Assembly: GCA_963847655.1 (NCBI GenBank)
Contig: CAWKAS010000014.1
Span: forward strand, 29,584 to 93,583
Direction of reading: 5' to 3'
Length of the DNA stretch: 64,000 bases
DNA from: an uncultured Acidobacteriota bacterium
GTDB lineage: Bacteria; Acidobacteriota; Vicinamibacteria; Fen-336
The position numbers and the translations under genes were made by a program. Shown here in pieces: positions 4,759 to 59,821 of the stretch (position 1 is the stretch's first letter; every line of letters starts with the position of its first letter). The notes beneath the pieces are model-generated. The model was given only the letters and a program-made list of their open reading frames with translations, had not been told where the DNA came from and did not search any database.

Positions 4759-6517
4759 ATGCGTCTTTCAAGCGACGGCCACCCCCTCCACCCCAAGGGC
4801 TCACGGGCCCGCGTCCTCCTGTGCAGCGTCTTCGGGCCCTACGCCCGGGACGACGAGTACGGGAGCCGCTCCGTGAACCCCATGGAGCTCTACCAGAACC
4901 AGGTCACGCGGATGCAGGGCCCCTTCTCCCTGCGGATGTTCCACCGCTCCTGGGGATTGATGCTCATCCAGGCCAACATCGAGGCCCCGTGCACGCTCCT
5001 GGACTTCCCGGACCTGGAGCGCTTCGAGGCCGAGCTGCGGGAGCACGAGTACGACGTCGTCGGCATCGGCGCCATCATCCCGAACGTCGGCAAGGTCGCG
5101 AAGATGTGCGCGGTCATCCGCGAGCTCCAGCCGAACGCGACGATCGTCGTCGGCGGGCACGTGGCCAACCACGACCGGATCGACGAGCTGGTCGACGCCG
5201 ACCACGTGGTGCGGGGCGAGGGCGTGCAGTGGTTCCGGCGCTTCCTCGGGGAGGACGCGACGCAGCCGTTCCGTCACCCGCTCATCCAGTCCGGCTTCGG
5301 CACGCGCATCCTGGGGGTGAACGGCTCGGACGAGTTGGCGGACACCGCGGCCACCGTCATCCCCTCGGTCGGGTGCCCGCTCGGCTGCGACTTCTGCGCC
5401 ACCTCGGCCATGTTCGGAGGCAAGGGGCGCTCGTTCGACTTCTACTCCTCGGGCGACGAGCTCTACGACCTGATGGCCGGGCTCGAGGAGAGAGATGGGC
5501 GTCTCCGCCGTTCTTCGTCATGGACGAGAACTTCCTCCTGCACCGCAGGCGGGCGATGCGCCTGCTGGAGCTGATGAGGGAGAACGGGAAGGCCTGGTCG
5601 TTCATGGTCTTCAGCTCCGCCAACGCGCTGCGGCTCTACGCCATGGAGGATCTCGTCGCGCTGGGCATCTCGTGGGTGTGGATGGGCCTCGAGGGCGACG
5701 GGGCCGCGTACCGCAAGCTGAAGAACGCCGACACCCGGGCGCTGGTGCGGGAGCTGCAGTCGCAACGGGATCCGCGTCCTCGGCTCGAGCATCGTCGGCC
5801 TGCGCGAGCACACCCCGGAGAACATCGACGCCGCCATCGACTACGCGGTCAGCCACGACACCGACTTCCACCAGTTCATGCTGTACACGCCGGTCCCCGG
5901 GACGCCCCTGTGGAAGAAGCACAAGGAGGAGGCGACGCTGCTCGACGAGAGCGAGTGCCCGACCGCCGACGTGCACGGCCAGACCCGCTTCAACTACCGC
6001 CACCCCCACATCCAGGACGGCCAGGAAGGGGAGATGCTGATCCGGGCCTTCCGGCGCGACTTCGAGGTGAACGGGCCCAGCATCGTCCGCATGCTGGGGA
6101 CGCTGCTGAAGGGGTATCTCCGCCACCGCGAGCACCCCGACCCGCGGGTGCGCGCACGCTTCTGGTGGGAGACCCGGGACCTCCGAAAGCACCTACGCGG
6201 GGATCGTCTGGGCGTCGGAGCGCTGGTTCCGCTCGAGCCCGGCCGTCCGCGCGAAGATCCGCGCGGTGCGCGACGATCTCCGGGCCGCCTTCGGATGGCG
6301 CAGCGCGGTCTGGGGAGCCGCGGTCGGCCCGGTCCTCCTGGCCGCCCTCTGGCTCGAGCAGCGCCGCCTGGACCGCGGGTGGACGTACGAGCCCCCCACC
6401 TTCTACGAGACCAACAGTCCCCTGGCCGACGCCGGCCGCGGGCGGGGCCCCGTCCCCGTGCCGGTGCGCTGGGTGGAACCCACGGTCGTCCCCCATGCCG
6501 AGGCCCAGACCGCCTAG
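4759..6517 (+). pseudogene. B12-binding radical SAM protein (DUF4070-type C-terminus), disrupted by three frameshifts
   Basis: N-terminal B12-binding domain, then the CPLGCDFC (CxxxCxxC) motif. The frame shifts 1->3 near 5500, 3->1 near 5760 and 1->2 near 6185, and each segment reads as good radical-SAM sequence (FFVMDENFLL...; NGIRVLGSSIVGL...; STYAGIVWASERWF...). The TAG stop at 6515-6517 lies inside a MITE terminus. An alternative TTG start sits at 4747. Confidence 0.75.
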
Positions 6518-6700
6518 GCGCGTCTCGTCACTGAAGTCGAGCACACAAGGCTCTCAGCGCGGCCAAGGGACTCGGCGGGCGGGGACCCCGGCGAGGACCC
6601 TGCTTCACTTCGTAGCTTGCGGGCCCGCAGCTGGGGTGCCCGCCGAGCCCCCGAGGCGACACGGGCCGTGAAGTAGACCCGACTTCGGTGACAGAACTAG
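6514..6700. mobile_element. MITE-like non-autonomous repeat element, copy A (187 bp, CTAG termini, imperfect ~23-bp TIRs, central palindrome)
   Basis: About 90% identical to the reverse complement of 34473-34658. The termini are CTAGGCGCGTCTCGTCACTGAAGTCG ... CGACTTCGGTGACAGAACTAG. The central palindrome is CTGCGGGCCCGCAG. Confidence 0.6.
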
Positions 6701-6706
6701 GCGCCT

Positions 6707-8292
6707 TCAGGCCCCATAGCCCTTGGGGGGGCGGAAGCCCCCGACGACGTCGGCCATCCCTCGGGCGACGTCGATGGGCGTCGCGTCCTCGAGGTAGGGG
6801 CCGAGGATCTGGATCCCGCACGGGAGCCCGTCGCGGGTCTGCCCCACGGGAGCGGTCGTGGCGGGCAGGCCGGTCAGCGTCGCGAACGAGATCCAGAACA
6901 TGCAGGTCCAGGTACGGTCGTGGGCCCTCGGGGGTGGCGAGCCGTCGGTCTTCCCGGGGCATCCGGTGGTCGTGGGGAAAGGCGGCCACGAAGGCGGTGG
7001 GCATCAGGAAGGCGTCGTGCGTGCGGAAGTACTCCTGCCAGATCGCCCGGGCGACCATCCTCCGGCTGCTCGCGGCCTGGAAGTGCCGGTGGGGGTCCAC
7101 CCGCGCCTGGGCTCGGAGGGCCTGAAGTCCTCCCGTCGGGTCCGCCGCGCGGGCCCGCTCCCGCTCCAGGTCCTCGTCCTCGAGGTCGAAGGCGAAGAAG
7201 GCGCTGAGCAGGTACCAGTAGGTCTCGAACTGCTCCCGTGGCACCACGCCCTCGGGCCAGCCCTCCTCGAGCCTGAGCCCGTCCCGGCGAAGGGCGTCGA
7301 TCGCGCCCGCCAGTGTCTCCCGCACGTCGGAGGAAAGCGGGCACTGCGGGTCGTCGAGGACGTAGCCGATGCGGTAGTCGTCCAGGCGAGCCTGGCGCGC
7401 CGGAGGCAGGGTCCAGCGGTAGGCGATGGCGTCGTCGCCCACCGGCCCGCCGAGCACGCCGAGCGACGTCGCCAGGTCCTCCGCGTGCCGCGCCATGGGG
7501 CCAGCCACCGGCAGGTCGGTGGGAGGCTGGGGGAGGCTGCCCGGAAGAGGCGGGATCTGGCCCCGTCGCGGGACGACGTTCAGGGTGGGCTTGTGACCGT
7601 AGACCCCGCAGAAGTGCGCGGGGGTGCGGATGGAGCCCCCGATGTCACTGCCCAGGGCCACGAATCCGAGCCCCGCGGCCAGCGCGGCGGCGTTGCCCCC
7701 GCTCGAGCCGCCGGGGGTGCGCGCGAGGTCCCAGGGGTTGTTGGTGGTGCCGTAGACCTCGTTGTAGCTCTGCAGGTCCCCGAGCAGGAGGGGCACGTTG
7801 GTGTTCCCCACGACGACCGCCCCGCCGGCACGCAGGCGGGCGACCGCCTCGGAGTCCTCGGCGGCCCGGTGATCGGCCAGGGAGGGCACCCCGACGGTCT
7901 GGGGCACGCCCGCGATGCCGAATGACTCCTTGATGGCCACCGGCACCCCGTGGAGGGGTCCCCAGCGCTCGCCCCGCGCCGAGCGCCTCGTCGGCGGCGC
8001 GGGCCCGGGAGAGGGCGGAGTCCGACAGGACGTTCACGTAGGCGTTCAGGGCCGGGTTGTAGCGGGCGACACGGTCGAGGACCTCCCGAGTGAGCTCGAC
8101 GGACGAGAGCTGCCGCCTGGCGATCGCCCGAGCGGCCTCGCTCGCGGAGGCGAAGGCCAGCCCTGGCGGGCGGGCCCCGCCGCGGGCCCAGGGGGCGCTT
8201 CGACCCAGGACGGCGGCGGCTCCGGCGCCCAGGGCACCGGAGACGAAGGCGCGCCGCGTGGAGACACGGCGCGGTGGTGCGGCCCACGGCAT
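6707..8292 (-). pseudogene. Amidase (amidase-signature family) with Tat signal peptide, disrupted by two frameshifts
   Basis: Tat signal RRAFVSGALGAGAAAVLG; GGSSGG motif; K...S..S catalytic region; C-terminus GLPCGIQILGPYLEDAT. The frame shifts near 7965 (a GGGG run) and near 6900. Confidence 0.8.
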
Positions 8293-8368
8293 GGGGGTCC
8301 TCCTCGGGGAACGACCGGGAGGTTAGCACGTGTCCTGGCGCCTCGTGGGGGCCCGGGTCTCGTTTGGA

Positions 8369-9206
8369 TCAGTCGGTGCCGGGCTCGTCCGCCTCGGCGG
8401 GCCGGGCGCCCAGGCCCGCCACCACGTCGATGCCGCCGTTGACCGTCTCGAGGTCGAAGCTCCCGCTTGCCGGGGCCGAGGCGGCCCTCGAGGCGGCGCT
8501 TCTTCCTGGTGGTGACCTCCAGGGGCAGGTCGCACCCGATCCCGCCGTTCACCGTCGTGGCCTTCAGGCGGCCGCCGGTGCCCTCGGGGAGGGACAGGTC
8601 GATGCCGCCGTTGACCGTCTCGAGCTCGTACCGCCCGCCCTCCGGGACCCGGGAGAACCCGGCGCGGATGCCGCCGTTGACGGTCTGGGCCCGCAGCTCG
8701 CCCTCGAGGTCGGCGAGCTCGAGGCCGCCGTTGACGGACTCGACGCGCAGGCTTCCGGCCAGCCCCTCGACGTCCACCGGGCCGTTGACGGTCTTGAGCC
8801 GCACGTCGGCGCCCCGGGGAACGGTGAGGTCGTAGTCGACCTTCCCCCGGTGGCCGCCCGCGAACCAGCTCCCCTTCGGGTACCGGGTCTTCACCCGGAC
8901 CTCGCGGCCTTCTCCTTCGATCACGACCTCGATGTCCTCGAGAGCCGCCTCGCTGGTGGCGGCTCGCGTCGCCTCGATCCTCACCTCGTCTCGCGACCAC
9001 GTGCGGAGCGTGATGCGGCCGTTCACGTTCTCGAGCTCGAAGCGCCCGTCCGGCTCCAGGGCGCGCGTCTCGTCGACGACGTCGCGAGCGTTCAGCGGCG
9101 CGCTCGGGAAGCCCGTGCAGGAGGCCAGGACGAGAGCCGCGACGACCGCGGCGGTCAGGGTCGAAAAGCGGTGCATTGACATGGGCTTGCCCTCCAACAT
9201 GAGCAA
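8369..9206 (-). pseudogene. DUF4097 (putative adhesin, VNG-repeat) lipoprotein, one frameshift near the 3' end
   Basis: Lipobox LVLASC; repeated VNGxI/V beta-strand motifs. The C-terminal ...GSFDLETVNGGIDVVAGLG... is found in another frame, with a shift near 8460. An alternative start is at 9182. It lies 77 nt upstream of the amidase on the same strand. Confidence 0.7.
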
Positions 9207-9345
9207 CGAAGCGGGCCCGCCTCGGGTTCCACGAATCCCCCGACTTTGCCCCCTTCAGGCCGCGGCGGGCTAGAATGCGCCGATTCGTCGCCGCCGGGCG
9301 AGCCGGAAACCCCCGTCGAGCGCCAGCGGCATATCGAGGAGCCGA

Positions 9346-10635
9346 ATGAGCGAGACGAGATCGTCCTTCCCGCCGGTCTTCTGGGTCGCCAACCTCATCG
9401 AGGTGATGGAGCGGTTCGCCTACTACGGGATCTACTTCGGCTTCGGGATCTACATGAAGTCCCTCGGCTTCTCCCCGGACCAGCTCGGGTGGGTGCAGTT
9501 CATCTTCCTGCTCCTCTCGTACACCATCCCGGTGATCTCGGGGACCTTCGCCGACAGGTTCGGCTTCAAGAAGACCCTGCTCGTCGCGTACATGGCGTAT
9601 CTGCCCGCCATCCTCCTGCTGATCTTCAACAAGACCTTCTCCGGGATCGCCCTCACGATGCTCACGATCGGCTTCGCCGCGGGCATCTTCAAGCCCCTGA
9701 TCGCGGGGACGGTCCGGGCGGTCACCGACAAGTCGAACAAGACCCTCGGCTTCGGCATCTTCTACGCCATGGTCAACGTGGGGGGGTCCTTCGGCCCCAT
9801 CGTGGCCGGGAAGCTCCGGGCGATCTCCTGGGACCACGCCTTCTACACCGCCGCGGGGATGATCGTGTTGATGTTCCTCGTGACGGTCTTCTTCTACAAG
9901 GAGCCACCCCGGCAGATCGAGGGGCTGACGCTCAAGCAGAAGTTCCGGGACCTGCGCACGGCGCTGTCCGACCTGAAGTTCACGAGCTTCCTGATCGTGC
10001 TCGGCGTCATGTGGTGGGTCCCCTTCTGGGCGTTCTTCAACCTCTGCGCCCTCTACGTCGACTCCAACGTGGACACCGCCCAGCTCTACCTCGACATCCG
10101 CAGCGTCCTCGGCTCGGGGATCGCCGGCTTCCTCTCCCACGTGGACGAGGACGGCACGAGGCGGGTGCTCGGAGAGTCCATCTCCAACACCGGCTACATC
10201 ATCGTGCTCCTGCAGGTGTTGGTCTCCAAGACCATCGAGAAGTGGAGGGCCCTGCCCACCTTCATGAGCGGTCTGGGGCTGTCGGCCGCCGGCTTCGTCA
10301 TCCTCGGCTACGCGCGGATGTCGGTCGCCTCGATGATCTTCGTGGGCATCTTCTTCTTCGCCCTCGGCGAGATGATGGCCTCCCCGCGGATCCAGGAGTA
10401 CATCACCTGGATCGCCCCGAAGGAGAAGGCGGGTCTGTACATGGGCGCCAACTTCCTGGCCACCGCCATCGGCGCGTTCAGCGGTCCCATCTACACCGGG
10501 CTGTACGGTCGCTTCGACGCCATGGGGCGCCCCGAGTACGTGTGGTACACCCTGGCCGCCCACGTGCTGCTGGCCATCGTGGTCATCAACCTGTTCGTGA
10601 AGCTCTTCGGCGCCTTCGAGGAGCGGGAGGCCTGA
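9346..10635 (+). CDS. POT/PTR2 family proton-dependent oligopeptide transporter (MFS)
   Basis: 429 aa with the ERFAYYG PTR2 signature and 12+ predicted TM helices. Intact. Confidence 0.9.
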   Translation: MSETRSSFPPVFWVANLIEVMERFAYYGIYFGFGIYMKSLGFSPDQLGWVQFIFLLLSYTIPVISGTFADRFGFKKTLLVAYMAYLPAILLLIFNKTFSGIALTMLTIGFAAGIFKPLIAGTVRAVTDKSNKTLGFGIFYAMVNVGGSFGPIVAGKLRAISWDHAFYTAAGMIVLMFLVTVFFYKEPPRQIEGLTLKQKFRDLRTALSDLKFTSFLIVLGVMWWVPFWAFFNLCALYVDSNVDTAQLYLDIRSVLGSGIAGFLSHVDEDGTRRVLGESISNTGYIIVLLQVLVSKTIEKWRALPTFMSGLGLSAAGFVILGYARMSVASMIFVGIFFFALGEMMASPRIQEYITWIAPKEKAGLYMGANFLATAIGAFSGPIYTGLYGRFDAMGRPEYVWYTLAAHVLLAIVVINLFVKLFGAFEEREA

Positions 10636-10639
10636 CCCG

Positions 10640-12445
10640 TCAGCGGCAGGAGCCGCGGTACATCTCGGCGGCGCGGACGGCGTAGACGACCTCGTAGTCG
10701 CCGGCGTCCATGAAGCGTACCAGGCTCAGGCCGCTGGGCAGCATCAGGACGTGGTTGCCGCCGTAGCCGGACATGAGGGGCACGTCGACGGTGCAGCGCC
10801 CGGTGTCGGTGCGGACCGTCCAGACGGAGTGGAGGTAGCGCTCGCTCGCGGCCGGGGTCTGGTAGGCGGCCCGTCCCGCCCGGCGCATGGCCTCCCGGAC
10901 CTTGGTCCGGCTGACGAGCTGCCGGCCCCCGGCAGAGCCCTCGTCCTGGAGGAGCTGGGCCACCTTGGCCGCCGCGTCGACGTCGGGGTAGCTGCCCCAG
11001 CCCATGATGGGCGTCCCGCGGGCGCCGTCCGGCTCGATCGACCGCGAGAGCGGCAGGTGGGGGACGCCGATGGGCTCGAGAACGTCCTGTCGCACCATCG
11101 TCCAGTAGTCCGCGGCCGGCCCCTCGCGCATCTTGACGTAGCTGTTCATGGCCTGCGAGAGCACGAACGAGTGCGTGGAGTAGTACGCGAACTCCGTTCC
11201 GGGGGCCGGGGGAGCGTCCGGGAGAGCGGCGATGGCGGCGATCTTGGAAGCCGCGGAGCGAGCCTGGATGTAGGGCCCGATCGCGGCGCCCCGCTCGCCG
11301 CCCACGGTGCCGGTGACCATGTTCAAGGTGTGGTGGAAGGTGACGCCCTGCCAGCCCGGGTGACCGGCGAGCTCAGGCACGTGGTCGATGATCCGCTCGT
11401 CGAAGATCCCGTCTCCGTAGCGCTGGGCCAGGTAGAACATCGACAGGCCCAGGCCCATCGTCTTCGTCACCGAGAAGACGCCATGACGCATCCACTCTGG
11501 CCAGGGATGCGGGCCCGAACGAGTGGCCACCTCCTGCTGGTAGAGCTGGCCGTCCACGAGGAGAGCCACCGCGCTCAGGTCGGTGTCCGCGAAGCCGTTC
11601 CGGGACGTGGCCTGAGTGGTCTCCGCGTCCGGCAGCGCGGACCAGGGACGCAAGGGCAGGCGGGAGGCGCGCTCCCGGCCGAAGGCGGCGGCGGCGGCCT
11701 CGGCTCCGCCGGGACACACCGGGTCCCAGGTGGCCGGCACCAGGGCGGAGAAGTCCGTGCGGAGGTACTCCTCGTTGGGCGCCGTCTCCTGGGTGATCTG
11801 GATCGCGACCCGGGAGACCTCGACGCCGTTGAAGACGAAGGTGGCCAGGCCGTTGCGGGCCTGTCCGACGTAGTTGTCGGTGAGGGTGAAGAGAAACGTC
11901 GCTCGGGAGTAGCCCGCGTCCGCGGCTTCCTCCCAGACCCGGCCCGGGTTGGCGATGACGTTCCAGAGGCTGCGACCCCTCCCTCCGGCGCCGTGCCCCG
12001 ACAGGATCAGGTCACGCTCCAGGGGAACGAGCCAGCCGCCGCGGGTGACCAGGGGCAGGGAGAACGCGGGGAACAGGGTCTGGCCCCCGCCCCTCCAGTC
12101 GGAGTCCGGGTGCGTCGTGGACATGGGCGTCTCGGAGAAACGGAGCGTTCCGCAGAGCACGTGGGAGGCAGCCCCCGCGTCTCCGAGCGGCTGAAAGTAG
12201 GCGTTGTGAACCACCCCGGGCGGCGTCGCTCCGAAGAGCTCGTCCACCGTCAAGGCGTCGCGGATGCCGGCGGGCGGTGGTGGGGTCGCGGTGGGTGGCG
12301 GGGGGGCGGTCGGGCTGGTGTCGTCGCCGCCGCAGGCGGCGAGAAGGCAGAGGGCCGTCAGGGTGAGAAGAGCCAACGACCACGACGTGTCCCGGCGAAC
12401 CCTTCCGAGGCGAAATGCTGGGTCGAGATGGCAGTGCGCCGGCAT
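10640..12445 (-). CDS. Beta-lactamase-family serine hydrolase lipoprotein
   Basis: S-x-x-K active-site motif (SVTKTMG); signal peptide with lipobox LLAAC. The start is chosen at MPAHC to avoid overlap with the upstream gene (a longer ORF extends to 12676). Confidence 0.75.
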   Translation of the reverse strand: MPAHCHLDPAFRLGRVRRDTSWSLALLTLTALCLLAACGGDDTSPTAPPPPTATPPPPAGIRDALTVDELFGATPPGVVHNAYFQPLGDAGAASHVLCGTLRFSETPMSTTHPDSDWRGGGQTLFPAFSLPLVTRGGWLVPLERDLILSGHGAGGRGRSLWNVIANPGRVWEEAADAGYSRATFLFTLTDNYVGQARNGLATFVFNGVEVSRVAIQITQETAPNEEYLRTDFSALVPATWDPVCPGGAEAAAAAFGRERASRLPLRPWSALPDAETTQATSRNGFADTDLSAVALLVDGQLYQQEVATRSGPHPWPEWMRHGVFSVTKTMGLGLSMFYLAQRYGDGIFDERIIDHVPELAGHPGWQGVTFHHTLNMVTGTVGGERGAAIGPYIQARSAASKIAAIAALPDAPPAPGTEFAYYSTHSFVLSQAMNSYVKMREGPAADYWTMVRQDVLEPIGVPHLPLSRSIEPDGARGTPIMGWGSYPDVDAAAKVAQLLQDEGSAGGRQLVSRTKVREAMRRAGRAAYQTPAASERYLHSVWTVRTDTGRCTVDVPLMSGYGGNHVLMLPSGLSLVRFMDAGDYEVVYAVRAAEMYRGSCR

Positions 12446-12522
12446 CGGGTTCGACGGGCTCTCCCTGAAGAGAGACACGCAACCCCGCGTCATTTGTTCC
12501 CGACGCCGGCTCCGCGGGCGAA

Positions 12523-13605
12523 TCAGGCGCCGTCGGGATCCTCGCGCGGGGTGTGGAATTCGCTCCGCCCCGTCGCGGGTGGGGCCTCCGCGGGTGGGCG
12601 GGGCGCGGCCTCGGTTGACGGAGCTCCGTCGCTCTCCGCGTCGCCGGCCTCCGGAGCCGGTCGGGGAGGAGGCCATCCGCCCTCGGGGGGCGCAGTCTCC
12701 TCGATGTTCACGACGCTGAAGGCCCCCTCGAGGACGACGTCGTAGCCCGGCGTGTCCTTCTCGATGGTGTCCCGGGCCGGGCCCTTGTCCAGCCAGACCA
12801 GGGGGAAGCCGGGGCCCTCATAGCGCACCGGAGTTCCCTCGGGGACCTTCACGTCGAACGCGCTGAAGGCCCCCTGGAAGTGGATCCTGACCCGCTGCGA
12901 GGGCGGGGGCAGACGGAACGTCCAGGAGTTGAAGGCCCCGCTCACCTTGGCGCCGGTCACCCACCCCCGACGCAGGTCGAGACCACCCCGGATGAAGACC
13001 CCGCTGAGCTCGAGCTCCAACGGGAGGTTGTCGGCGACCCCCAGCTCCCAGACCTCGCGGGGCGTCCCGGCCACGATGAACCCGCCGTCCCGTCCCTCGA
13101 GCCGGAGGTTGGCCCCGCCCTTCTGGCCGTCGACGTCCAGGCGGGGCGTGCTCTCACGGGACGCGGCCCGGCCCTCCGCCAGGAGGGCGGGCGCGAGGGA
13201 GCGGGCCTCGAGGCCGACCCGGACGCCGGCGAGCTCGGCCTCGATGCGCGCGCGATCGGCGCCCTCTGGCCTCTCCGCGGCGACCTCGTGCCACTCCCCG
13301 GGAGGCCGGGGCTGCGGCGGGTCGCCCCAGGCCAGCCAGAACAGCGTGCCCACGACCACGACCGGTCCGAGCACCATTCCCGCGGCGAGTGGCGTCTTCT
13401 CGAAGACGATGCGGATCCCGGCGGAGACGAGGAGCACCGGCCAGAAGGACACGGCCTCCATCCAGAACCCGTCCGGCAGGCCCCGCGTGGTGGCGACGAG
13501 GAAGAAGACACCCAGGCCGGCCAGACCCACACCGTCGGCCACCCGACCCCAGTCCGTGCGGGGACGGGGGGTTTCGTCGTCGGCGTCGCGGGAGCTCGCG
13601 GACAT
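12523..13605 (-). CDS. Membrane protein with LiaF-like/DUF-type C-terminal beta domain
   Basis: The start at MSASSRD is preceded by an AGGAGAAAG RBS. It has 3 TM helices near the N-terminus, a C-terminal repeat-like beta region and an acidic tail. Confidence 0.5.
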   Translation of the reverse strand: MSASSRDADDETPRPRTDWGRVADGVGLAGLGVFFLVATTRGLPDGFWMEAVSFWPVLLVSAGIRIVFEKTPLAAGMVLGPVVVVGTLFWLAWGDPPQPRPPGEWHEVAAERPEGADRARIEAELAGVRVGLEARSLAPALLAEGRAASRESTPRLDVDGQKGGANLRLEGRDGGFIVAGTPREVWELGVADNLPLELELSGVFIRGGLDLRRGWVTGAKVSGAFNSWTFRLPPPSQRVRIHFQGAFSAFDVKVPEGTPVRYEGPGFPLVWLDKGPARDTIEKDTPGYDVVLEGAFSVVNIEETAPPEGGWPPPRPAPEAGDAESDGAPSTEAAPRPPAEAPPATGRSEFHTPREDPDGA

Positions 13606-13724
13606 CGATCTTTCTCCTACGTTCACGATAGCTTACGCGACGCGGCCCCGCGCCGTTCCGTCACTCGCCGACGCCCACCGTGCGTCCGCCGAAACGCTCG
13701 GCGGGATTGAATCCCGCGGTGTGC

Positions 13725-15629
<1,905 letters not shown>

Positions 15630-15667
15630 CGCCCGACGTTAGCACGGGGAGCGGGTGCGGTTCAGCC

Positions 15668-16564: not shown

Positions 16565-16859
16565 GGTTGGTCCTCTCTTCCCGCGAGGTGTCGTCCGGAC
16601 CGCATGCCGATGGCGACGGAGGCACGCTGAGGGAGGAGCCGCGGCATTCGGTTCGACGGCCCGTTGGTGAGCCTATACCGGGCACGGGGGACGGCACCAG
16701 ACAAATCACTCCCGCGCGGTGGGCGGGGAGCCCCCGAAAGCGCGACCTGAGCCGGTCCCCTTCGCCCGTGTCGTCCGGAGGGACCCCAGCTCGGAGGAGT
16801 TCGAATCGTGCTCTGCCACCGGAGAGGCTGATCGCTTCGAGCACGTTCGACGCAAACGC

Positions 16860-17621
16860 CGACTACTCTCCAGATGGTCGAAGAATCGCGTTCTGTTCCT
16901 TTCTTGGCGGGGACGCCAGCAGCATCTGGATCAGCGAGAGCGATGGGGCGAACCCGGTCCAGCTCACCCGCTTCGAGAGGGCCGCTGGGACGCCACGGTG
17001 GTCTCCCGACAGCCGGAGGATCGTCTTCGACAGCGACGAGGCAGGGGATCAGAACCTCTACGTGGTCGATGCCGATGGCGGGGCGGCACGGCGGCCGACG
17101 CCCGGGACCTCCTCCGACGTCACGGGCACGTGGTCGCGAGACGGTCGTTGGATCTACTTCGAATCCGACCGGGCGGCACCTCCCAGATCTGGAAGATCCC
17201 GGCCGAGGGAGGAGAAGCGGTCCAGGTGACAAGGGGCGGTGGAAGCTATGCCGTGGAGTCGTGGGACGGTCGCCACCTGTACTACTCCAAGGCCGGGTCC
17301 ATGCGCAGCATCCGGCGGGTTCCAGTCGCCGGCGGTGAAGAGGCCCTGGTAGCCGAGGCACCCGACTTGATGCTCCGGAGACTGTGCTCCTCTCGAACCG
17401 GGCTCTACTTCCCCAGGCGACGGGCCTCTGGTCCTCTCGGGGTCACGGAGCACTCGATTCACTTCCTCGACTCCGCTACCGGGCACGTGAGCACGCTTCT
17501 CGAGGAGGAGGACCACTTCGCCTGGCCCGACATCTCGGTCTCTCCCGACGAGGAGTGGGTCCTCTACGCGAAGCAGCCCACACCACTGTCCGAGCTGATG
17601 CTGGTGGAGAACTTCCGCTAG
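16860..17621 (+). pseudogene. TolB-like PD40 beta-propeller repeat protein, N-terminally truncated and frameshifted
   Basis: PD40 repeats (YSPDGRRIAF, WSPDSRRIVFDSD, WSRDGRWIYFESDR). The frame shifts near 17175 (SQIWKIPAEGGEAVQVT continues in another frame). No convincing N-terminus or start was found. Confidence 0.45.
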
Positions 17622-17923
17622 ATCCGCTGGCTCGCGGCGCGTCCCCGGCTCACGGCCCAGGTACAACGACCGGCGCCCCCCGGGGCAGCCTTCCACCGTT
17701 CGGCCCTCGGCTATCACTCTCCCTCGATGAGCGCCCGGTGCCCCGGCATCCGTTGACCTTCACTCGCCGGGCGGGGTCAGCTCTTCCCGAGTCACCGGAC
17801 CTCCTGTGGCAGTCCGGGAACGTAGACTGTCCTCGAATCACACGTCGCCCGGATGCTGCGCCGCTGAGTCGCACCTCTCCCCGGCCGGCCGGTCTCGCGG
17901 GCTCTCTCTCCCAGGGAGTCGCC

Positions 17924-27709: not shown

Positions 27710-28096
27710 ATGCCGCGCCAGACCCTGGGCGATCTGCAGCACGCGATCATGGCCGTCCTGTGGGAGCGGGGGGAGGCCACCACCGCCGACGTTCACGAGG
27801 CCCTCTACGCCGAGCGGGGCCTGGCTCTGACCACCATCGCCACCATGCTGCGGAAGATGGAGGACAAGGGCGTCGTCGCCCACCGCTCCGAGGGCCGCCA
27901 GTTCGTCTACCGCCCCACGGTGACCCAGACGGAGGTCCGCGAGTCCATGGTGGGGGAGCTGGTCGAGCGTCTCTTCGGGGGCGACGCGAAGGCCCTGGTG
28001 GCCCACCTCGTCTCCGAGCACGAGATCGACGGGGCCGACCTGGCCGAGCTGCGCCGGCGCGTGGGGGCGGGCCGTGGGAAGGGGGGTCGGCGATGA
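27710..28096 (+). CDS. BlaI/MecI/CopY family transcriptional repressor
   Basis: 128 aa; winged-helix N-terminus (LGDLQHAIMAVLWERGEATTADVHEAL) and a C-terminal dimerisation helix. Confidence 0.9.
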   Translation: MPRQTLGDLQHAIMAVLWERGEATTADVHEALYAERGLALTTIATMLRKMEDKGVVAHRSEGRQFVYRPTVTQTEVRESMVGELVERLFGGDAKALVAHLVSEHEIDGADLAELRRRVGAGRGKGGRR

Positions 28097-30100
28097 GCGG
28101 GCTGACGGGCTGGCTCCTGACCTACCTGCTGCACAGCACGGTCCTGCTCGGTGGGGCGGCGCTCGTGGGTCTCGTCCTCCGGGAGCGCCGGCTCGGCCTC
28201 CAGGAGGCCGTGCTCAGGGCGGCGCTGGTGGGCGGCTTCCTCACCGCGAGCCTGCAGCTGGGTCTGGGCGTGCAACCGCTCGGCGGGGTCTTCACCCTCG
28301 CCGAGGCCCCGCCCGCTCCGCGGACGGTGCCGCTGGCCCCGCCCGCGCCGTCGGTCGTGACGTTGCAGGGGCCCCTTCCCGCCGTGCTCGAGGAGGTTGC
28401 GGAGACGCCCGACACGCGCGAGGCCACTCCTGGCTGGAGCCTTCCCGCACCCGCGGCGTGGGGGCCCGCCCTGGTGGGCCTGTGGGGCACGATCGGCCTC
28501 CTCGCCCTGGCCCGTCTCGGGGTGGCGGCGGTTCGCCTGCGGCGCCTGCTGCGTCCGCGCCATCCCCTGGCCGGCACCGGTCTGGCCTCGAGCGTGGCCG
28601 CCCTCACCGCGGGTCTCGGCCTGCGTCGCCCGGTTCCCGTGAGCACGGCGCCGCGGCTCGACGTCCCCCTCGCCACCGGCGTCGTCCACCCGGAGGTGTG
28701 CCTCCCGCCGCGGACCCTCTCCGAGCTCGAAGGGGACCAGCAGGTCGCCCTGTGCGCGCACGAGCTGGCTCACGTGGCGCGGCGCGATCCGACGTGGATC
28801 CTGCTCGCCCGGCTGGTCGAGGCCGTGGCCCCGCTCCAGCCCCTCAACATCTGGGCGCGACGCCGTCTCCAGGACGTGGCCGAGTGCCTGAGCGACGACC
28901 TCGCGGTGGCGGCCTCCGGGCATCCCGAGGGTCTGGCCCGCTCCCTCGTCGACGTGGCCGCGTGGACCGTGGCCGATGACGTTTACCTCCCCGCGGCGGC
29001 AGGGGCGCTCAGCTCCCGCCACCGCCTGGGGCATCGTGTGGAGAGACTCATGGACCCCCTGCGCTCACTCGAACGTCCCGGTCGTCTTCTTCTGCCGCTG
29101 GCCGGCGCGGCCGTGCTGGCCACGGCACTCGTCACCCCCGCCGTCTCGGGCACGTCGGTCCCGGAGGCGCAGCCGTCTTCGACGACCACCGTACCGAAGG
29201 CGCCCGAGGCGCCCGTGGCCCCGGAAGCTCCCGAGGCTCCCGAGGTGCCGGAGGCTCCCGGAGGCCCCGGAGACTCCGGAGGCCCCCGAAGCCCCCGAAG
29301 CCCCCGAAGCCCCGGAGGCGACGGAGAAGCCCCGCTCGCCGGCAGCGCGGGAGCTCGAGGAGCTGACGCGCCGGATCGAGGCGCGCGCCGAGCAGCACGC
29401 GGCGCAGATGGAGGAGGTCGGCGCCGAGATCGAGCGGATCGTGGAAGCCAGCCTGCCTCCGGAGGAGGAGATGGACCGCCTGGCCAGCGAGATGGAGAGT
29501 GCGGCCGAGGCCCTGGCCGAGGCGCACCGGATGCAGCACGGGCGCGAGGGCGCCTCCACCGAGGAGGAGCGCGCCGAGGCGCGGGCCCGGGCGGAGGCGG
29601 CTCGCGCCCGCATGGCGGAGGCTCGCGAGCAGATGCAGGCGGCCACTCGGGAGCTCGGGATTCCGGACGGCGAGCTGCGGCGCCTGCAGGAGCGGGCCCG
29701 CGACATGGCCAAGGCCGCCGCCCCCACGCCCGAGGAGCGGCGCCGACTCGAGGAGCTGACCCGCGAGATCGTCGAGGAGTCCATGCCCGACCTGGACGAG
29801 CTGCGTGAGGAGATGGAGGAGGTCGGCCGGACGCTCGACCTGGACGAGCTGCGGAAGGAGATGGCGGAGATCAACCGGACGGTGAACCGGGAGAGCAGGG
29901 AGGCGATTCGGGAGAGCATGCGGGTCGTGCGGGAGGCCCTGCGCGAGACCATGCCCCGTGTGCGCGCGGAGGCACGGGCGGCCCGTGAGGCCGCACGGGA
30001 GTCGGCACGCCACCGCCAGCGTGAGGTCGACGGCGACCGGGAGCTGGGCGAAGCGGAGCAGCGGCACGCGGACGAAGCGGCGGAGGCCCCCGAGCTCTAG
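28093..30100 (+). pseudogene. BlaR1-like M56 family metallopeptidase, with a PEAPEA repeat linker and a charged coiled-coil C-terminal domain (one frameshift inside the repeat)
   Basis: Its ATG overlaps the blaI stop (ATGA). It has 4 TM helices and the HExxH motif HELAH. A Pro-Glu-Ala 9-bp tandem repeat follows; an extra G near 29261 shifts the frame. The C-terminal ~270 aa is an E/R/A-rich coiled coil ending at 30100. No penicillin-binding sensor domain is present. Confidence 0.75.
29191..29330. repeat. Tandem 9-bp repeat array (CCCGAGGCT / CCCGAAGCC variants) encoding the (PEA)n linker
   Basis: Read directly from the sequence; about 14 units. Confidence 0.7.
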
Positions 30101-40320: not shown

Positions 40321-41917
40321 ATGGGCAGCGAGGGTCTCACTCGACGGGAGGTGCTCCAGCGGGGCACCGCGCTGGCGCTCCCCGGCGTCCTCGCCGGAAG
40401 GACCGTGGGCGGCGGGGGGCCGGGCCCGGTGGCGGGAGCGCCGGCGGGTGGTCTGCAGCCCGGACCCGGCATCTACGAGTCGATCGGCGTCCGTCCGCTG
40501 ATCAACGCCCGGGGAACGTACACGATCCTCTCCGGATCGCTCATGCTGCCCGAGGTCCGAGAGGCCATGGTGGCCGCGGCCCAGCACTACGTCCACCTCG
40601 ACGAGCTGGCCGAGGGCATCGGCAAGCGCCTCGCCGAGCTGACCGGGGCAGAGTGGGGGATCGTCACCTCGGGGTGCGCGGCGGCGCTCACCCACGCCTC
40701 CGCCGCCTGCGTGGCCGGCGGGCAACCCCGACCTCCACGTGCGCCTGCCCGACCTGCGGGGCTTCCCTCGCGACGAGGCGATCATCCCGAAGCCGTCGCG
40801 CAACGTCTACGACGCGGCGGTGCGCGCGGTGGGCCTGCGGGTGCTCGAGGTGGAGACGGCGGAGGAGCTGGAGGCGGCCTTCGGCCCTCGCACCGCGATG
40901 GTCTACGTCTTCGCCGGGCCCTGGGCCGACGAGGGACCGCTCCGCACCACCGCCGTCGCCGAACGGGCACGCGCCCGGGGTGTCCCGGTTCTCGTCGACG
41001 CCGCCGCGGAGATCCTCACCGTCCCCAACGTCCACCTCGAGGCGGGGGCCGACCTGGTGGGCTACAGCGGCGGGAAGTGCCTGCGCGGCCCGCAGACCGC
41101 GGGCCTCCTCATCGGTCGGCAAGACCTGGTCCGGGCGGCCTGGGTCCAGTCCGCGCCCCACCACGGCTTCGGCCGATCGATGAAGGTGGGGAAGGAAGAG
41201 GCCATGGGCATGCTCATGGCCGTCGAGATGTGGATGAAACGCGACCACGAGGCCGAGTGGGTCCGGTGGACGTCGTGGCTGGAGACCATCGCCGCCCGCG
41301 TCGCCACCGTCGACGGGGTCACCACCTCGGTCGTGGAGCCCGTCGGCCTGTCCAACCGCACGCCCACCCTCGCGGTGAGATGGGATGGGGATCGGCTTGG
41401 GGTGACCGGCCGGGAGGTGTCGGAGCGCCTCTTCGGCGGCGATCCACGCGTGGCGCTGGCTCCGGTGGACGGTGGCGGAGGAGGGGAGACCGGTCTCACG
41501 ATCAACCCCTACATGATGTCGGCGGGTGAAGACCGGATGGTGGCCGACGCCCTCCACGCCGTTCTCTCGAACCCGCCCCCGCGCGGGGAGGGTCCCGCGG
41601 TCCCGCCGGAGACGGACCTCACCGGGGAGTGGGAGGTGGAGATCGCGTACGCCGCGGGCCGCTCGACCCACCGGCTGTTCCTGCGCCAGAGGGGGGAGGT
41701 CCTCGACGGCTCCCACCGGGGCGACTTCGTCGAGAGGCCGTTGAGGGGACGCATCGAAGGCACCGCGGTCGAGATCCGCAGCGTGGTGACCGAGAAGGAG
41801 GACGGCAACGCGCTCTCCTACACCTTCACCGGAGAGGTCGACGGCGACGCGATGGCCGGGCCCCTCGACCTCGGCGAGTACCTCCAGGCCCGCTGGACCG
41901 CCCGGAGGAGAGCATGA
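40321..41917 (+). pseudogene. SelA-like PLP-dependent enzyme family protein with Tat signal (one frameshift)
   Basis: Tat motif RREVLQRGTALALPGVLA. The SelA-like core carries YSGGKCLRGPQTAGLLIG (Lys-PLP site). An extra G in the GGG run near 40722 shifts the frame 1->2. Confidence 0.65.
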
Positions 41918-44655: not shown

Positions 44656-46285
44656 ATGGGCCAGACGCGGGTCGACCTGCGGCACCTGCTCGAGGACCTG
44701 CGCGACGCCTACCCGGGCGAGATCGAGGAGACGATCCTCTCCGAGGTCGTCGCCAACGCGCTGGACTCGGGGGCCACCAGCGTCCGGGTGCTGGCCGACT
44801 CCGGGGAGCGCACTCTCGTCGTGGTGGACGACGGCTCCGGCATGGGGCGCCGGCAGCTGGCCCGCTACCACGACCTCGCGTCGACCACCAAGACGCGGGG
44901 CGAGGGCATCGGGTTCGCCGGCGTCGGCATCAAGCTCGGCCTCCTGATCGCCGAGGCCGTCCTCACCGAGACCCGGCGCGGGCTCCGTCCACGTCGCCAC
45001 CCGCTGGCAACTGGCCTCGCGCCAGAAGGCGCCCTGGCGGTGGGTGCCACCCCCGGGATGGGTCTCGGAGCGGGGAACCGCGGTGGGCCTCCACCTCCGC
45101 AACCCCCTGTCGCCGCTTCTCGATCCCGGCTACCTCGAGGCGACGCTGCGGCTGCACTACGAGCCGTTCTTCGATCCCGCCCTCGACCAGATACTCGCTC
45201 CTCACTACCCGGACGGCGTGCGCTTCGCGGTCAACGGCCGCCCCCTGGAGCGGACCGGCCCGGGTTCGCACGGGGAACGGGCGCCCCTCGTCGTGAAGCT
45301 GCCGCGCAAGCGCAAGGCGTCGGCGGTGGGTTTCCTGGAGCGGGCGACGATGCCGCTGCCCGAGGACCTTCAGGGCATCGCGGTGAGCACGCTCGGCAAG
45401 GTGATCCGGAGGGGCTGGGAGTGGGCCGGCCTGAGCCCGAGCTCGCCGGAGATCATGGGAGGGCTCATCGAGGCCCCGGGCCTCGCCGCGGCGCTCACCT
45501 TGAACAAGGGCGACTTCGTCCGGGCCGGGCGCCGGGGCGTCACCTACCTGGCCTACCGGAAGGCGATCCAGTCCGCGGTGCAGGCCCAGCTCGCGGCGTG
45601 GGGCGAGGCCCGCGAGCGGGAGGACCGGGCCCGCCGTCGGGCCACGCGCCCCATCGAGCGCGACCTCGAGAGCGTCCTCCTCGACCTCGCGGACGAGTTC
45701 CCGGCGCTGGGCGCTCTCGTCGAGCGGCGGGCCGGGGGCCAGCGGCGGCTGCCCACCGGGGAGGACGACCAGGGGGAGGGCACCCTCGGCCGCGAGCCGC
45801 AGGAGGCGGCGCCGGCCGCGCAGCAGGAAGAGACCGGGCTGGCCGCCGCCAGCGAGGCGGCCGCAGAGGCGGGGGAAGAGGGGGAGTCGTCGCCCGGGGA
45901 GGCGGGGCCAACGGCTGGCGGCCTCGCCCCCGTCGCCACGGGGACGCTGCCCCCGCTGGCCTCGGGCGCTGGAGGGCCGAGGCGACCCACCCGCTACGGC
46001 CTCGGCATCGAGTTCGAGGAACGACCCGACTCACCCGACCTGGGCCGGCTCGTGGAGTCGACCGTCCTCGTCAACAGCGCCCACCCCGCCTATCACCGCG
46101 CCGTGGCCTCGCGGTCCGAGGGCTACCACGCGGCCCTCGCGGTGGGGATGGCCCTCGCCGCGGTGGCCGTCGAGCCCGCGAGGGCGCAGACCTTCCTGTC
46201 GACCTTCCTCGCTCGCTGGGGCGAGGCCCTGGGCCGCGACCGTCGCCGAAGGACGAGCCGACCCCGCCGCGGCCGCGGAAGCTGA
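44656..46285 (+). pseudogene. GHKL-superfamily ATPase (HATPase_c_3 / MORC-Hsp90-like ATP-binding protein), one frameshift
   Basis: N-terminal Bergerat fold (EVVANALDSGAT...VVDDGSGMG...GEGIGFAGVGIK). The frame shifts at the GGG run near 44980. It has an acidic low-complexity linker and a conserved C-terminal domain. It starts 48 nt after vapC on the same strand. Confidence 0.6.
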
Positions 46286-46965: not shown

Positions 46966-47140
46966 GACCCCTTCTCCTGTCTTCCTCGCCCCCGCATCAC
47001 TGAGACACGCCCCGACAGGCCGAGTGTCACTCGCGGTCCCGGGTTTGCGGGCCGGCGCCGGCGCGCGGTCGGAGGAGTAGGCCTTGTATCCGCCGGCGTC
47101 GTGGGCGTCGGGCACCGACACCATGAGGGTGTGAATCGCC

Positions 47141-49483: not shown

Positions 49484-49594
49484 GGTCGGGGGTGACCCCG
49501 ACCAGTCTAGCCCCACCGCCGTGCCGGACCGGCGCAATTGTCAGCGGTGCCGCGCATCGCTTAGGCTGCGCGGGGCCTCGCGGGGGGGGAGATC

Positions 49595-58239: not shown

Positions 58240-58385
58240 GCCGAGATCATAGATCGTCCGGAGTGGCGCCCAGGAGATCCCCGCTCCTGGGCGGGCGGGC
58301 CTCCGGGCGCCGGGGATGCGATCATCGGGGGGATGCCCGATTCGTGATCGCGCGAGGATTCCGAGAGGGTGCCGGAGTGAGCTCG

Positions 58386-59063
58386 ATGCCAGCGCGTTTC
58401 GACCCCAGCAGCCGTTCGGTGCTCAACCCCCGGGACGTCGGCCGGTTCACGGGCGAGACGCTCTTCGACCGGGTGGCCCGGGCCATCTGCGAGGCCGACT
58501 GTCTCCCGCGCAAGGAGCTCTACGAGTCCTGGGAGCTCGCCCGCCGCGTGCGGCGGAGGATTCGTGGTCGCCGGGTGGTCGAGCTCGCCGCGGGCCACGC
58601 ACTCGTCGCGCACCTCCTCCTGCTGCTCGACGACTCGAGCGAGGGCGCGGTGGCCATCGACACGAAGCCCGTACCCAGCGCGGCCCGCCTCGCGCAGGTC
58701 CTGGTGTCTCGCTGGCCCCGGCTCGACGGTCGGGTCGAAGGTCGCGTGGCGGACCTCGCCACCGTCCACCTCGAGCCCGGGGACCTCGTGGTCTCGGCGC
58801 ACGCCTGTGGGGCGCTCTCCGACACCGTGATCGATCGCGCAGTCCGGGCCCGGGCCGTGGTCGCCCTCCTGCCCTGCTGCCACGACGCCGCCACCTGCGA
58901 CACCGGCGGTCTGACCGGCTTCCTGTCGATCCCCCTCGCCGTTGACGCGACGCGGGTCGCACGCCTGCGCGCGGCCGGCTACGACGTCGTCACCCAGACC
59001 ATCCCCGCGGAGATCACACCCCACAACCGGCTGATCCTTGGAAGCCCGGAAGAACGTCCCTAG
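58386..59063 (+). CDS. Hypothetical protein (weak Rossmann/methyltransferase-like features)
   Basis: Start at MPARFDPSS. It has VVELAAGHALVAHLL and a later acidic beta-strand pattern. No firm assignment. Confidence 0.4.
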   Translation: MPARFDPSSRSVLNPRDVGRFTGETLFDRVARAICEADCLPRKELYESWELARRVRRRIRGRRVVELAAGHALVAHLLLLLDDSSEGAVAIDTKPVPSAARLAQVLVSRWPRLDGRVEGRVADLATVHLEPGDLVVSAHACGALSDTVIDRAVRARAVVALLPCCHDAATCDTGGLTGFLSIPLAVDATRVARLRAAGYDVVTQTIPAEITPHNRLILGSPEERP

Positions 59064-59297
59064 ATCGACCGCCCACTCCTTCCAGGGTGTGCTCGGGGCC
59101 CGCAGCCCTCGGGGTTCGCGAGACGGGTGGCCCGCCTGCCGCCCGCCGAGCTGCACGCGAAGGTGCCGTGGCGCGACGACGACACGCGGCTCATGCCGCT
59201 CGCCGGCGGGGCGCGGGTGCGTCCACGTGTCTTCTGCGCGTCGATGTCGTATGGTGGGCTCGACGTCTGTCCAGAGGTGGAGGGAGGGGGCTCACCC

Positions 59298-59821
59298 ATG
59301 CGTGGTGGGAGTGTCGTGGTGGCGGTGGTGGTGCTGCTGGCGGGTCCGTGGGGGGCGGGGAGGGAAGCCCTCGCGTCGGTATGGAGGACGCGGCGGCGGC
59401 GTCGCCCGCCGATGAGGGGCAACCGGTGGTCGAGGACCTCGCCTGGCTGGCCCGTCGCTGGCGAGGCGAGGGGTTCGGCGGGATCTGCGAGGAGGTCTGG
59501 ACACCTCCGCTCGGCGGCTCGATGGTGGGCCTGTTCCGGCTGGTCCGCGAGGACGAGCTGGTGTTCAGCGAGCACATGATGCTGACCGCCGAGCCTGACG
59601 GGATCGTGCTGAAGGTCAAGCACTTCACGCCGGAGTTCGTCGCGTGGGAGGAGAAGGAGGATGCCGTCCGGTTTCGGCTCGTGGAGCTTCGCCCGAACGA
59701 GGCGGTCTTCGAGGGCCTGAGGATGCGCCGGACGGAGGAGGCCCTCGAGATCGTCCTCCGCATGAAGAACTCCGCGGGGGAGTCGAGGGACGAGACGCTC
59801 ACCCTGCGACCGCAGCCCTGA
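59298..59821 (+). pseudogene. Small secreted hypothetical protein, frameshift in a G-run after the signal peptide
   Basis: GGGAGG RBS; signal MRGGSVVVAVVVLLAGPWGAG in frame 3. The conserved-looking ~145-aa domain (MEDAAAASP...HFTPEFVAWEE...) is in frame 2, with a shift near 59355. Confidence 0.4.

What the first reader, a model, noticed from the sequence alone, without database searches (positions are those of the whole stretch)
4759..59821. Unusually high density of single-base frameshifts, mostly in G/C homopolymer runs
At least nine genes need one to three frame changes to read through: B12-rSAM (3), amidase (2), DUF4097, the PD40 fragment, the BlaR1-like M56 peptidase, the SelA-like enzyme, the GHKL ATPase and a small secreted protein. 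Where the shift could be pinpointed it sits in a GGG/GGGG/CCCC run (for example ggcgGgcaac at 40722, cccgGaggcc at 29261, gcgcgGGc at 44980). Neighbouring long genes (the 4.3 kb membrane protein, polB, the STK) are intact. The pattern fits homopolymer indel errors from the sequencing platform better than genuine mass pseudogenisation, but a real decaying accessory region cannot be excluded.
Basis: partly seen in the sequence, partly recalled or inferred. Interest (0 to 1): 0.5.

Follow-up and report, generated by a model that had tools for sequence, protein, structure and literature searches.

The report
Assembly insertion errors breaking eight genes
Eight genes in this 64-kb stretch of an uncultured high-GC acidobacterial genome are split by twelve single-base frame shifts, and these are almost certainly consensus errors of the assembly rather than real gene decay, so the finding is a data-quality flag and not biology.

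Summary
Eight genes need 12 frame changes. These are B12-rSAM (4, not 3), amidase (2), DUF4097, a PD40 ORF, BlaR1-like M56 peptidase, SelA-like PLP enzyme, GHKL ATPase and a DUF6265 secreted protein.

Removing or adding one base at each site restores full-length proteins in seven of them. These start at ATG and match single-ORF orthologues end to end. The orthologues are intact in short-read assemblies of close relatives (82-96% nt identity).

Ten of the 12 shifts are +1 insertions and two are -1 deletions. The insertions show no homopolymer preference: 3 of 10 end in a run of 3 or more, against 22% expected by chance, and several clearly sit outside any run. There are no in-frame stops. dN/dS downstream of the shifts equals that of intact neighbours.

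Seven coding shifts plus five intergenic insertion events fall in one 3.9-kb tract (4554-8468). Two related assemblies with Flye-style "contig_N" names carry the same +1-only, clustered signature in different genes.

Verdict: assembly or consensus artefact (about 0.88). Interest is low.

The parts
4759..6517 (+). B12-binding radical SAM gene, broken by four +1 insertions at about 5491 (gaggagAgag), 5507-5510, 5762-5764 and 6186-6190. When corrected it gives 584 aa.
   Evidence: Pfam B12-binding plus the start of Radical_SAM in the first frame only. The four-frame reconstruction matches 584-aa homologues at 90% identity and 100% coverage. Protein-to-DNA and DNA alignments to L084 and L086 show four extra bases in the window.
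4554..4752 (.). Intergenic start of the insertion-rich tract. Window-specific extra bases lie at 4554, 4624, 4665 (2 nt) and 4744-4752.
   Evidence: blastn against the 96.5%-identical short-read contig L091. Three-way alignment with L084 and L086.
6707..8292 (-). Amidase gene (PF01425), broken by two +1 insertions at 7980-7983 and 6902 (gacctgCatgttc on the - strand).
   Evidence: Pfam model split over three frames. Dozens of intact metagenomic homologues align in frames -2, -3 and -1. Exact sites. The L084 orthologue is an intact 527 aa.
8369..9182 (-). DUF4097 gene, broken by one +1 insertion at 8466-8468 about 30 codons before its stop.
   Evidence: Pfam DUF4097. The L084 272-aa orthologue aligns over residues 1-270 with one F1 shift. 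The DNA alignment shows an extra base.
16567..17621 (+). PD40 beta-propeller ORF with one -1 deletion at about 17170-17180 (gaccgggcggcacc). No recognisable N-terminus or start. It lies at the break of synteny next to an HNH ORF.
   Evidence: PD40 Pfam hits in the first frame. The repeat continues in the next frame. The low-penalty Viterbi switches at 17169/17170. The L087 253-aa PD40 protein aligns with an F2 shift at 17170.
28093..30100 (+). BlaR1-like M56 peptidase gene downstream of blaI. One +1 insertion at 29256-29261 makes a 10-bp unit (gctcccggag) inside the 9-bp (A/V/T)PE tandem-repeat linker.
   Evidence: Pfam Peptidase_M56. The L001 orthologue is a single frame of 695 codons, and the window switches from frame 1 to frame 2. 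Repeat array with 1% indels. Sequence read directly.
40321..41917 (+). SelA-like / class-V aminotransferase-fold PLP enzyme. One +1 insertion at 40720-40722 (gccggcGggcaac, GG to GGG).
   Evidence: Homologues P0121-P0124 (526-532 aa, 79-85% identity) align end to end with a single F1 shift and no residue lost. The source assembly's own call is the 392-aa C-terminal fragment P0126.
44656..46285 (+). GHKL (HATPase_c_3) ATPase gene. One +1 insertion at about 44980-44982 (cggcgcGggctcc, GG to GGG).
   Evidence: The HATPase_c_3 hit stops at the junction. Full-length homologues P0242, P0251 and P0255 align across it with one consistent F1 shift, T-R-R|G-S-V-H-V.
59298..59821 (+). DUF6265 small secreted protein. 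The signal peptide MRGGSVVVAVVVLLAGPWG is in one frame and the domain in another. One -1 deletion at 59356 (gtgggggg-cgggg).
   Evidence: Pfam DUF6265. 171-176-aa homologues cover the reconstructed N-terminus. The 96%-identical short-read contig L089 has the intact 174-aa gene with one more base, a T, at that spot.

Best explanation
The frame shifts are consensus errors in the deposited assembly, not mutations in the organism.

Shown: the window comes from a 216-kb metagenomic contig of an uncultured, 72%-GC acidobacterium.

Inferred: the contig is a long-read style assembly, and its consensus was left with stray single bases. These are mostly spurious +1 insertions placed without regard to homopolymers, plus two -1 deletions at G runs.

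Shown: the errors are concentrated in a poorly supported tract of about 4 kb (4554-8468), with isolated errors about every 10 kb elsewhere. Each error splits an otherwise perfectly conserved gene, so gene callers emit truncated fragments. Two such fragments are already in the protein databases.

Inferred: the error source is low local read depth, failed polishing, or collapse of co-occurring strains. The sequencing platform could not be identified.
For: 1. Orthologues are intact in independent short-read assemblies.
- The MEGAHIT MAG ALSabin.143 (L084, L001; 82-90% nt identity, fully syntenic over window 1-16566) has rSAM at 584 aa, amidase at 527 aa, DUF4097 at 272 aa and M56 in one frame.
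- JGI homologues of the SelA-like gene are 526-530 aa.
- Logan contig L089 (about 95% nt identity overall, 96% across this gene) has DUF6265 intact at 174 aa.

2. Editing a single base per site restores full-length proteins with ATG starts that align end to end with no residue lost: 584/584, 522/527, 270/272, 694/695, 530/530, 536/539 and 173-174/174.

3. There is no sign of decay. The orthologous CDS have 0 internal in-frame stops. dN/dS of segments downstream of shifts is 0.08-0.38, against 0.09-0.36 for intact neighbours.

4. The direction is biased: 10 of 12 events are +1 (one-sided P = 0.019). The extra base is window-specific in three-way DNA alignments.

5. The same signature appears in related organisms from two ENA assemblies with 'contig_N' names, but in different genes.
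- L086 has 8 or more +1 insertions, in DUF3014, S49, amidase, MFS and GH77.
- L087 has 8 +1 insertions within 600 bp of an MFS gene, and a 166-aa GroEL fragment.
- Pooled, 26 of 28 events are +1 (P about 1.5e-6).

6. The events cluster in one tract that includes intergenic DNA: 12 window-specific insertion events lie in 4554-8468. The flanking 4.5 kb, compared with a 96.5%-identical relative, has no coding indel.

7. Literature: long-read MAGs carry excess frameshift 'pseudogenes', worst at low coverage (PMC8103633). Collapsing nearby allelic variants introduces INDEL errors (PMC8445201).
Against: - No reads and no second assembly of the same strain were available. The closest DNA covering a shift site is 96% identical (one site only); the rest is 82-90%. 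Very recent real mutations therefore cannot be formally excluded.
- The sequencing technology of the source contig is not known to me. Its long-read origin is inferred from the 216-kb contig length and from the related assemblies.
- An insertion-only, non-homopolymer error mode is not the textbook residual error. For PacBio assemblies of high-GC genomes, a published comparison reports mainly G/C homopolymer deletions (PMC8574707); that the same holds for Nanopore is my recollection.
- The PD40 ORF lacks an N-terminus and has atypical codon usage. It could be a real relic.
Confidence: 0.88

Rival explanations
1. Genuine, very recent pseudogenisation: real +1/-1 mutations have inactivated eight genes in a decaying accessory region of this lineage.
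For: - The shifts are present in the deposited assembly itself. Its own gene calls, P0126 and P0391, are the truncated fragments.
- The shifts cluster in one 4-kb tract.
- The PD40 ORF lies at a synteny break beside an HNH gene and lacks an N-terminus.
Against: - All orthologues in relatives are intact.
- There are no nonsense codons, deletions or IS insertions, and dN/dS is not relaxed downstream of the shifts.
- Four independent hits in one 1.75-kb gene make no sense once the first has killed it.
- The +1 bias runs opposite to the deletion bias I recall for bacterial mutation.
- The same signature occurs at different genes in related assemblies, including 8 hits in 600 bp.
- Intergenic DNA in the tract is hit as well.
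Confidence: 0.05
2. One reading: classical homopolymer-length miscalls of the platform (454, Ion Torrent or Nanopore type) in G/C runs account for the shifts.
For: - Sites 29257 (CC to CCC), 40720 and 44980 (GG to GGG), and the intergenic site 8306 (GGG to GGGG), extend short runs.
- Both deletions lie in or beside G runs.
Against: - Sites 5491, 5762 and 6902, and probably 6190, are insertions between unlike bases.
- Across 26 insertions in the three assemblies, 54% abut an identical base, against 50.5% expected for random insertion.
- A final run of 3 or more occurs in 3 of 10 insertions, against 22% expected (P = 0.38).
- The affected runs are only 2-3 nt long. Published PacBio homopolymer errors in high-GC bacteria are deletions in 4-6-nt runs (PMC8574707).
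Confidence: 0.05
3. Biological recoding: programmed ribosomal frameshifting or transcriptional slippage lets the cell read through the shifts.
For: None specific. The idea is raised only because full-length proteins would be restored by a one-base change of reading frame at each site.
Against: - Twelve sites lie in eight unrelated genes, with no shared slippery motif (contexts).
- Orthologues encode the same residues in a single frame.
- Two shifts in one gene are only 19 nt apart.
- Intergenic insertions are also present.
Confidence: 0.005

Closest known systems
Indel-induced false pseudogenes in long-read (meta)genome assemblies (described for Nanopore MAGs in PMC8103633; correction tool Kastor, PMC12007338; Watson & Warr 2019 from memory)
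   Same: - Single-base indels fragment otherwise conserved ORFs.
- Short-read assemblies of relatives are intact.
- The effect is worse in local tracts, which suggests low coverage.
- Truncated proteins propagate into databases.
   Different: Here the residual errors are overwhelmingly +1 insertions outside homopolymers. The commonly described mode is homopolymer deletion. The platform of the source contig is unverified.
Systematic PacBio homopolymer indels in high-GC genomes (ARAMIS study, PMC8574707)
   Same: The genome is high-GC, and the events are single-base G/C indels that break genes. The two -1 deletions at G runs (about 17170, 59356) fit this mode.
   Different: That study found more than 70% of errors in homopolymers and mainly G/C deletions in 4-6-nt runs in the high-GC bacteria it examined. 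Ten of the 12 events here are insertions with chance-level homopolymer association.
INDEL artefacts from collapsing co-existing alleles or strains into one consensus (PMC8445201)
   Same: Apparent frameshifts disappear when haplotypes are resolved. Errors arise where nearby variants disturb read alignment. This could explain the clustering in a tract and the non-homopolymer insertions in a metagenome with several about 96%-identical strains.
   Different: This was not demonstrated here. I tested whether the inserted base equals a relative's wobble base. It did in 7 of 11 informative cases, against about 5 expected, which is inconclusive.
Reductive genome decay with mass pseudogenisation (for example Mycobacterium leprae or recent host-restricted pathogens; from general knowledge)
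   Same: A high fraction of genes have disrupted frames.
   Different: Decay gives mixed lesions (stops, deletions, IS elements), relaxed dN/dS and lesions shared among relatives. None of these is seen here.

Membership tests
Assembly/consensus indel artefact | The same gene is uninterrupted in independent assemblies of close relatives | tested here: met
   L084 and L001 (MEGAHIT MAG), JGI homologues and Logan L089 all have single ORFs. The limit is that relatives are 82-96% identical, not the same strain.
Assembly/consensus indel artefact | Editing one base restores a full-length, end-to-end conserved protein, with no relaxation of constraint after the shift | tested here: met
   Full-length alignments. 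dN/dS downstream is 0.08-0.38, as for intact neighbours, and there are 0 internal stops.
Assembly/consensus indel artefact | The error signature (type bias, clustering) is shared by other assemblies of similar provenance but at unrelated sites | tested here: met
   L086 and L087 (ENA 'contig_N' assemblies) carry +1-only insertions in other genes, 8 of them within 600 bp. Shared provenance with the window is inferred, not shown.
Assembly/consensus indel artefact | Raw reads disagree with the consensus at the sites, or coverage drops there | not testable with these tools
   No read data. The source record could not be retrieved.
   3 of 10 insertions give a run of 3 or more, against 22% expected (P = 0.38). 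14 of 26 abut an identical base, against 50.5% expected. Three or more are unambiguous non-run insertions. Only the 2 deletions fit.
Genuine pseudogenes / genome decay | Mixed lesion spectrum (nonsense codons, larger deletions, IS insertions) | tested here: not met
   Only 1-nt indels were found. There are 0 internal in-frame stops in the aligned CDS. No truncations except possibly the PD40 ORF.
Genuine pseudogenes / genome decay | Relaxed selection (dN/dS rising towards 1) in the disabled part | tested here: not met
   The pairwise test has limited power for very recent events.
Programmed frameshift / transcriptional slippage | A conserved slippery site, with the shift conserved in orthologues | tested here: not met
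   Orthologues are in a single frame at every site. The sequence contexts are heterogeneous.

The most novel reading that the evidence does not exclude
The shifts are real. Under this reading the lineage, or a sub-population captured by the assembly, carries a burst of very recent +1 insertion mutations concentrated in a 4-kb tract. That would point to a localised error-prone repair or synthesis event, for example by the neighbouring family-B polymerase or ligase systems, inactivating rSAM, amidase and DUF4097 together.
Probability: 0.04. Interest if true: 0.5.

Novelty: not a real feature. Interest (0 to 1): 0.1.

Why it matters
The value is practical. The eight genes should be treated as intact when inferring this organism's metabolism. 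The truncated products already sitting in protein collections (for example the 392-aa SelA-like and 146-aa DUF6265 fragments) are artefacts.

The error mode is worth knowing for anyone polishing or quality-checking similar assemblies. It consists of clustered +1 insertions outside homopolymers and is shared by related ENA assemblies. Homopolymer-focused correction would miss most of it, whereas frameshift-aware, protein-guided correction would catch it. No new biology is implied.

Tried and rejected
1. Looking up the window's own record failed. Exact-protein look-ups returned nothing or were not on record. Cluster look-ups gave only 'NCBI, ENA, 216,141-bp contig' without accessions.

2. A full-text search for the related assemblies' ENA analysis accessions found nothing, so platform and project stay unknown.

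3. tblastx of the window against the loci was too noisy in this 72%-GC DNA. I replaced it with my own protein-to-DNA aligner.

4. Many Viterbi frame switches were checked and rejected as ordinary gene boundaries:
- RibD_C/GNAT
- MoxR/DUF58/TgpA/ligase
- BlaI/M56
- SelA/amidohydrolase
- MazE/PIN/GHKL
- ECF sigma/STK
- SIR2/EndoV
- the lipoprotein gene at 30304-30855

5. Extra 'shifts' that distant GHKL or PD40 homologues produced in low-complexity parts were judged to be alignment noise.

6. I fetched same-species short-read contigs to test the sites directly. L090 ends 12 codons before the GHKL site and starts after the SelA site. L091 ends at window 4749, 10 nt before the rSAM ATG. L088 covers only blaI. 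Only the DUF6265 site was covered.

7. The strain-collapse hypothesis was tested by asking whether the inserted base equals a relative's wobble base. It did in 7 of 11 cases against about 5 expected, which is inconclusive.

8. There are no tRNA or Rfam hits in the window.


Full report
**What the window is**

The window is 64 kb at about 72% GC with very strong GC3 codon bias. I segmented it with a codon-usage Viterbi model over six frames plus non-coding. I then scanned every segment against Pfam.

Most same-strand frame switches are ordinary gene junctions:
- RibD_C/GNAT
- MoxR/DUF58/TgpA/ligase
- BlaI/M56
- MazE/PIN
- ECF sigma/Ser-Thr kinase
- SIR2/EndoV

A subset are switches inside one gene. 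The clearest case is the amidase. Pfam PF01425 positions 1-39, 39-388 and 392-442 lie in three different frames of the minus strand.

**Relatives used as references**

- A scan of species-representative genomes with the large membrane protein (1,431-codon open frame) found a MEGAHIT-assembled MAG, 'Acidobacteria bacterium ALSabin.143' (locus L001; 82% aa identity over the best segment).
- A protein search with the reconstructed rSAM led to a second contig of the same MAG (L084). It is collinear with window 1-16566 at 82-90% nt identity.
- Two further syntenic loci come from ENA assemblies whose contigs are named 'contig_N': L086 and L087.
- The window's own gene calls are in the protein collection as truncated products on a 216,141-bp contig held by NCBI and ENA. 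They are P0126, 392 aa, equal to 40739-41917, and P0391, 146 aa. The shifts are therefore in the deposited assembly itself.

**Pinpointing the shifts**

I wrote a protein-to-DNA aligner that allows 1- or 2-base skips and ran intact orthologues against the window.

| Gene | Shifts |
|---|---|
| rSAM | four +1 insertions: about 5491, 5507-5510, 5762-5764, 6186-6190 |
| amidase | two +1: 7980-7983, 6902 |
| DUF4097 | one +1: 8466-8468 |
| M56 peptidase | one +1 at 29256-29261, inside a 9-bp (A/V/T)PE tandem repeat, creating a 10-bp unit |
| SelA-like | one +1: 40720-40722 |
| GHKL ATPase | one +1: about 44980 |
| PD40 ORF | one -1: about 17170 |
| DUF6265 | one -1 at 59356; the signal peptide is in the upstream frame |

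The total is 12 coding shifts in 8 genes: 10 insertions and 2 deletions.

In every case except PD40 the corrected gene starts at ATG and aligns end to end with the orthologue without losing a residue (and the calls above). DNA three-way alignments show the extra bases are specific to the window.

**Homopolymer claim**

- 17% of window bases lie in G/C runs of 3 or more, and 41% of positions are within +-3 nt of one. A random insertion would extend a run 50.5% of the time and give a run of 3 or more 22% of the time.
- Observed: 3 of 10 insertions give a run of 3 or more (P = 0.38). Across the 26 insertions seen in the window, L086 and L087, 14 abut an identical base, which is 54%.
- Sites 5491, 5762 and 6902 are unambiguous insertions between unlike bases.
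- Only the two deletions sit at G runs.

**Real or artefact**

- Orthologues are intact in all short-read assemblies of relatives.
- The broken genes have no internal stop codons. Segments downstream of shifts evolve under the same constraint as intact neighbours, with dN/dS of 0.08-0.38 against 0.09-0.36.
- The rSAM carries four independent hits, two of them 19 nt apart. That is pointless as biology once the first has disabled the gene.
- Events are directionally biased, with 10 of 12 being +1 (P = 0.019).
- Events are spatially clustered. Seven coding shifts plus five intergenic insertion events (4554, 4624, 4665, 4752, 8306) lie in 4554-8468. The preceding 4.5 kb shows no coding indel against a 96.5%-identical relative.
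- L086 and L087 show the same +1-only, clustered signature in other genes. L086 has it in DUF3014 (x2), S49, amidase, MFS (x2) and GH77 (x2). L087 has eight within 600 bp of an MFS gene, plus a 166-aa GroEL fragment. Pooled, 26 of 28 events are +1 (P about 1.5e-6).

This is the behaviour of a consensus process, not of selection or mutation in three different organisms.

Published work describes exactly this consequence for long-read MAGs, worst at low coverage (PMC8103633). It also shows that collapsing nearby variants of co-existing haplotypes creates INDEL errors (PMC8445201).

The signature is not the classical one. For high-GC bacteria, PacBio residual errors are reported as G/C deletions in 4-6-nt runs (PMC8574707). 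I therefore do not assign a platform. A quick test of the strain-collapse idea was inconclusive.

**Limits**

- I had no reads and no second assembly of the same strain.
- The same-species short-read contigs I could fetch cover only one of the 12 sites (DUF6265). They narrowly miss the GHKL and rSAM sites.
- The PD40 ORF has no recognisable N-terminus and atypical codon usage, and it lies where synteny with relatives ends, next to an HNH gene. It may be a genuine relic whatever the status of its -1 shift.

**Verdict**

The interpretation as error is supported at about 0.88. The homopolymer mechanism is not supported. It is not a biological feature, and interest is low apart from its value as a quality flag.

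Noticed in passing
window 9346-10635 (+): This MFS transporter gene is 97.7% aa identical to its ALSabin.143 orthologue, with dS 0.15. Every neighbouring gene is 73-86% identical with dS about 0.45. GC3 is 0.97 (open frame 9274-10632). This suggests recent exchange or unusually strong constraint.
   Followed up: partly
window about 10640-12400 (-): A beta-lactamase-family gene is present in the window and in L086 (where it is itself frameshifted) but absent from the otherwise collinear L084. This is a presence/absence polymorphism between MFS and the 368-aa LiaF-like gene.
   Followed up: partly
window 16567-19018: Synteny with L084 and L086 ends exactly at 16566. The island holds the PD40 ORF and a 544-aa ORF with an HNH motif, and it has lower GC3 than the rest. 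It could be a mobile or foreign insert.
   Followed up: partly
window 29198-29319: A 9-bp tandem repeat of 13.4 copies encodes an (A/V/T)PE linker in the BlaR1-like protein. Copy number differs from L001 and L002.
   Followed up: partly
window 35840-36084: A C/T-rich 119-bp tandem repeat (2.1 copies, 78% match) overlaps the 3' end of the membrane-protein open frame (35942-40234, minus strand) and runs into the intergenic DNA towards the CBS gene. Its function is unknown.
   Followed up: no
window 30100-34017: In L001 the M56 gene is directly followed by the globin-like gene. The window has about 3.9 kb extra here, holding a lipoprotein gene (30304-30855), a GlgC-like nucleotidyltransferase and a metallo-beta-lactamase-fold gene.
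   Followed up: no
window 58255-59297 versus L089 2378-4288: The 95%-identical relative L089 carries ABATE/zf-CGNR and DinB genes between the methyltransferase and DUF6265. The window lacks both. The flanks, especially 58255-58360, show many small indels.
   Followed up: no
L086 (whole locus) and L087 7800-9000, 16409-16909: These related ENA assemblies (ERZ25039514 contig_54493, ERZ25039600 contig_71884) are themselves riddled with +1 insertions. L087 has eight within 600 bp of an MFS gene, and its GroEL is called as 166 aa. Their predicted proteomes are unreliable.
   Followed up: yes
window 43879-49540: A gene cluster reads MazE/PIN toxin-antitoxin, GHKL (HATPase_c_3) ATPase, DUF2807 and a family-B DNA polymerase. 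It could be a defence or mobile-element neighbourhood. I did not examine it further.
   Followed up: no
window 40739-41917 and 59381-59821: The assembly's truncated gene calls are already in public protein collections as if they were real proteins: P0126 at 392 aa and P0391 at 146 aa.
   Followed up: yes
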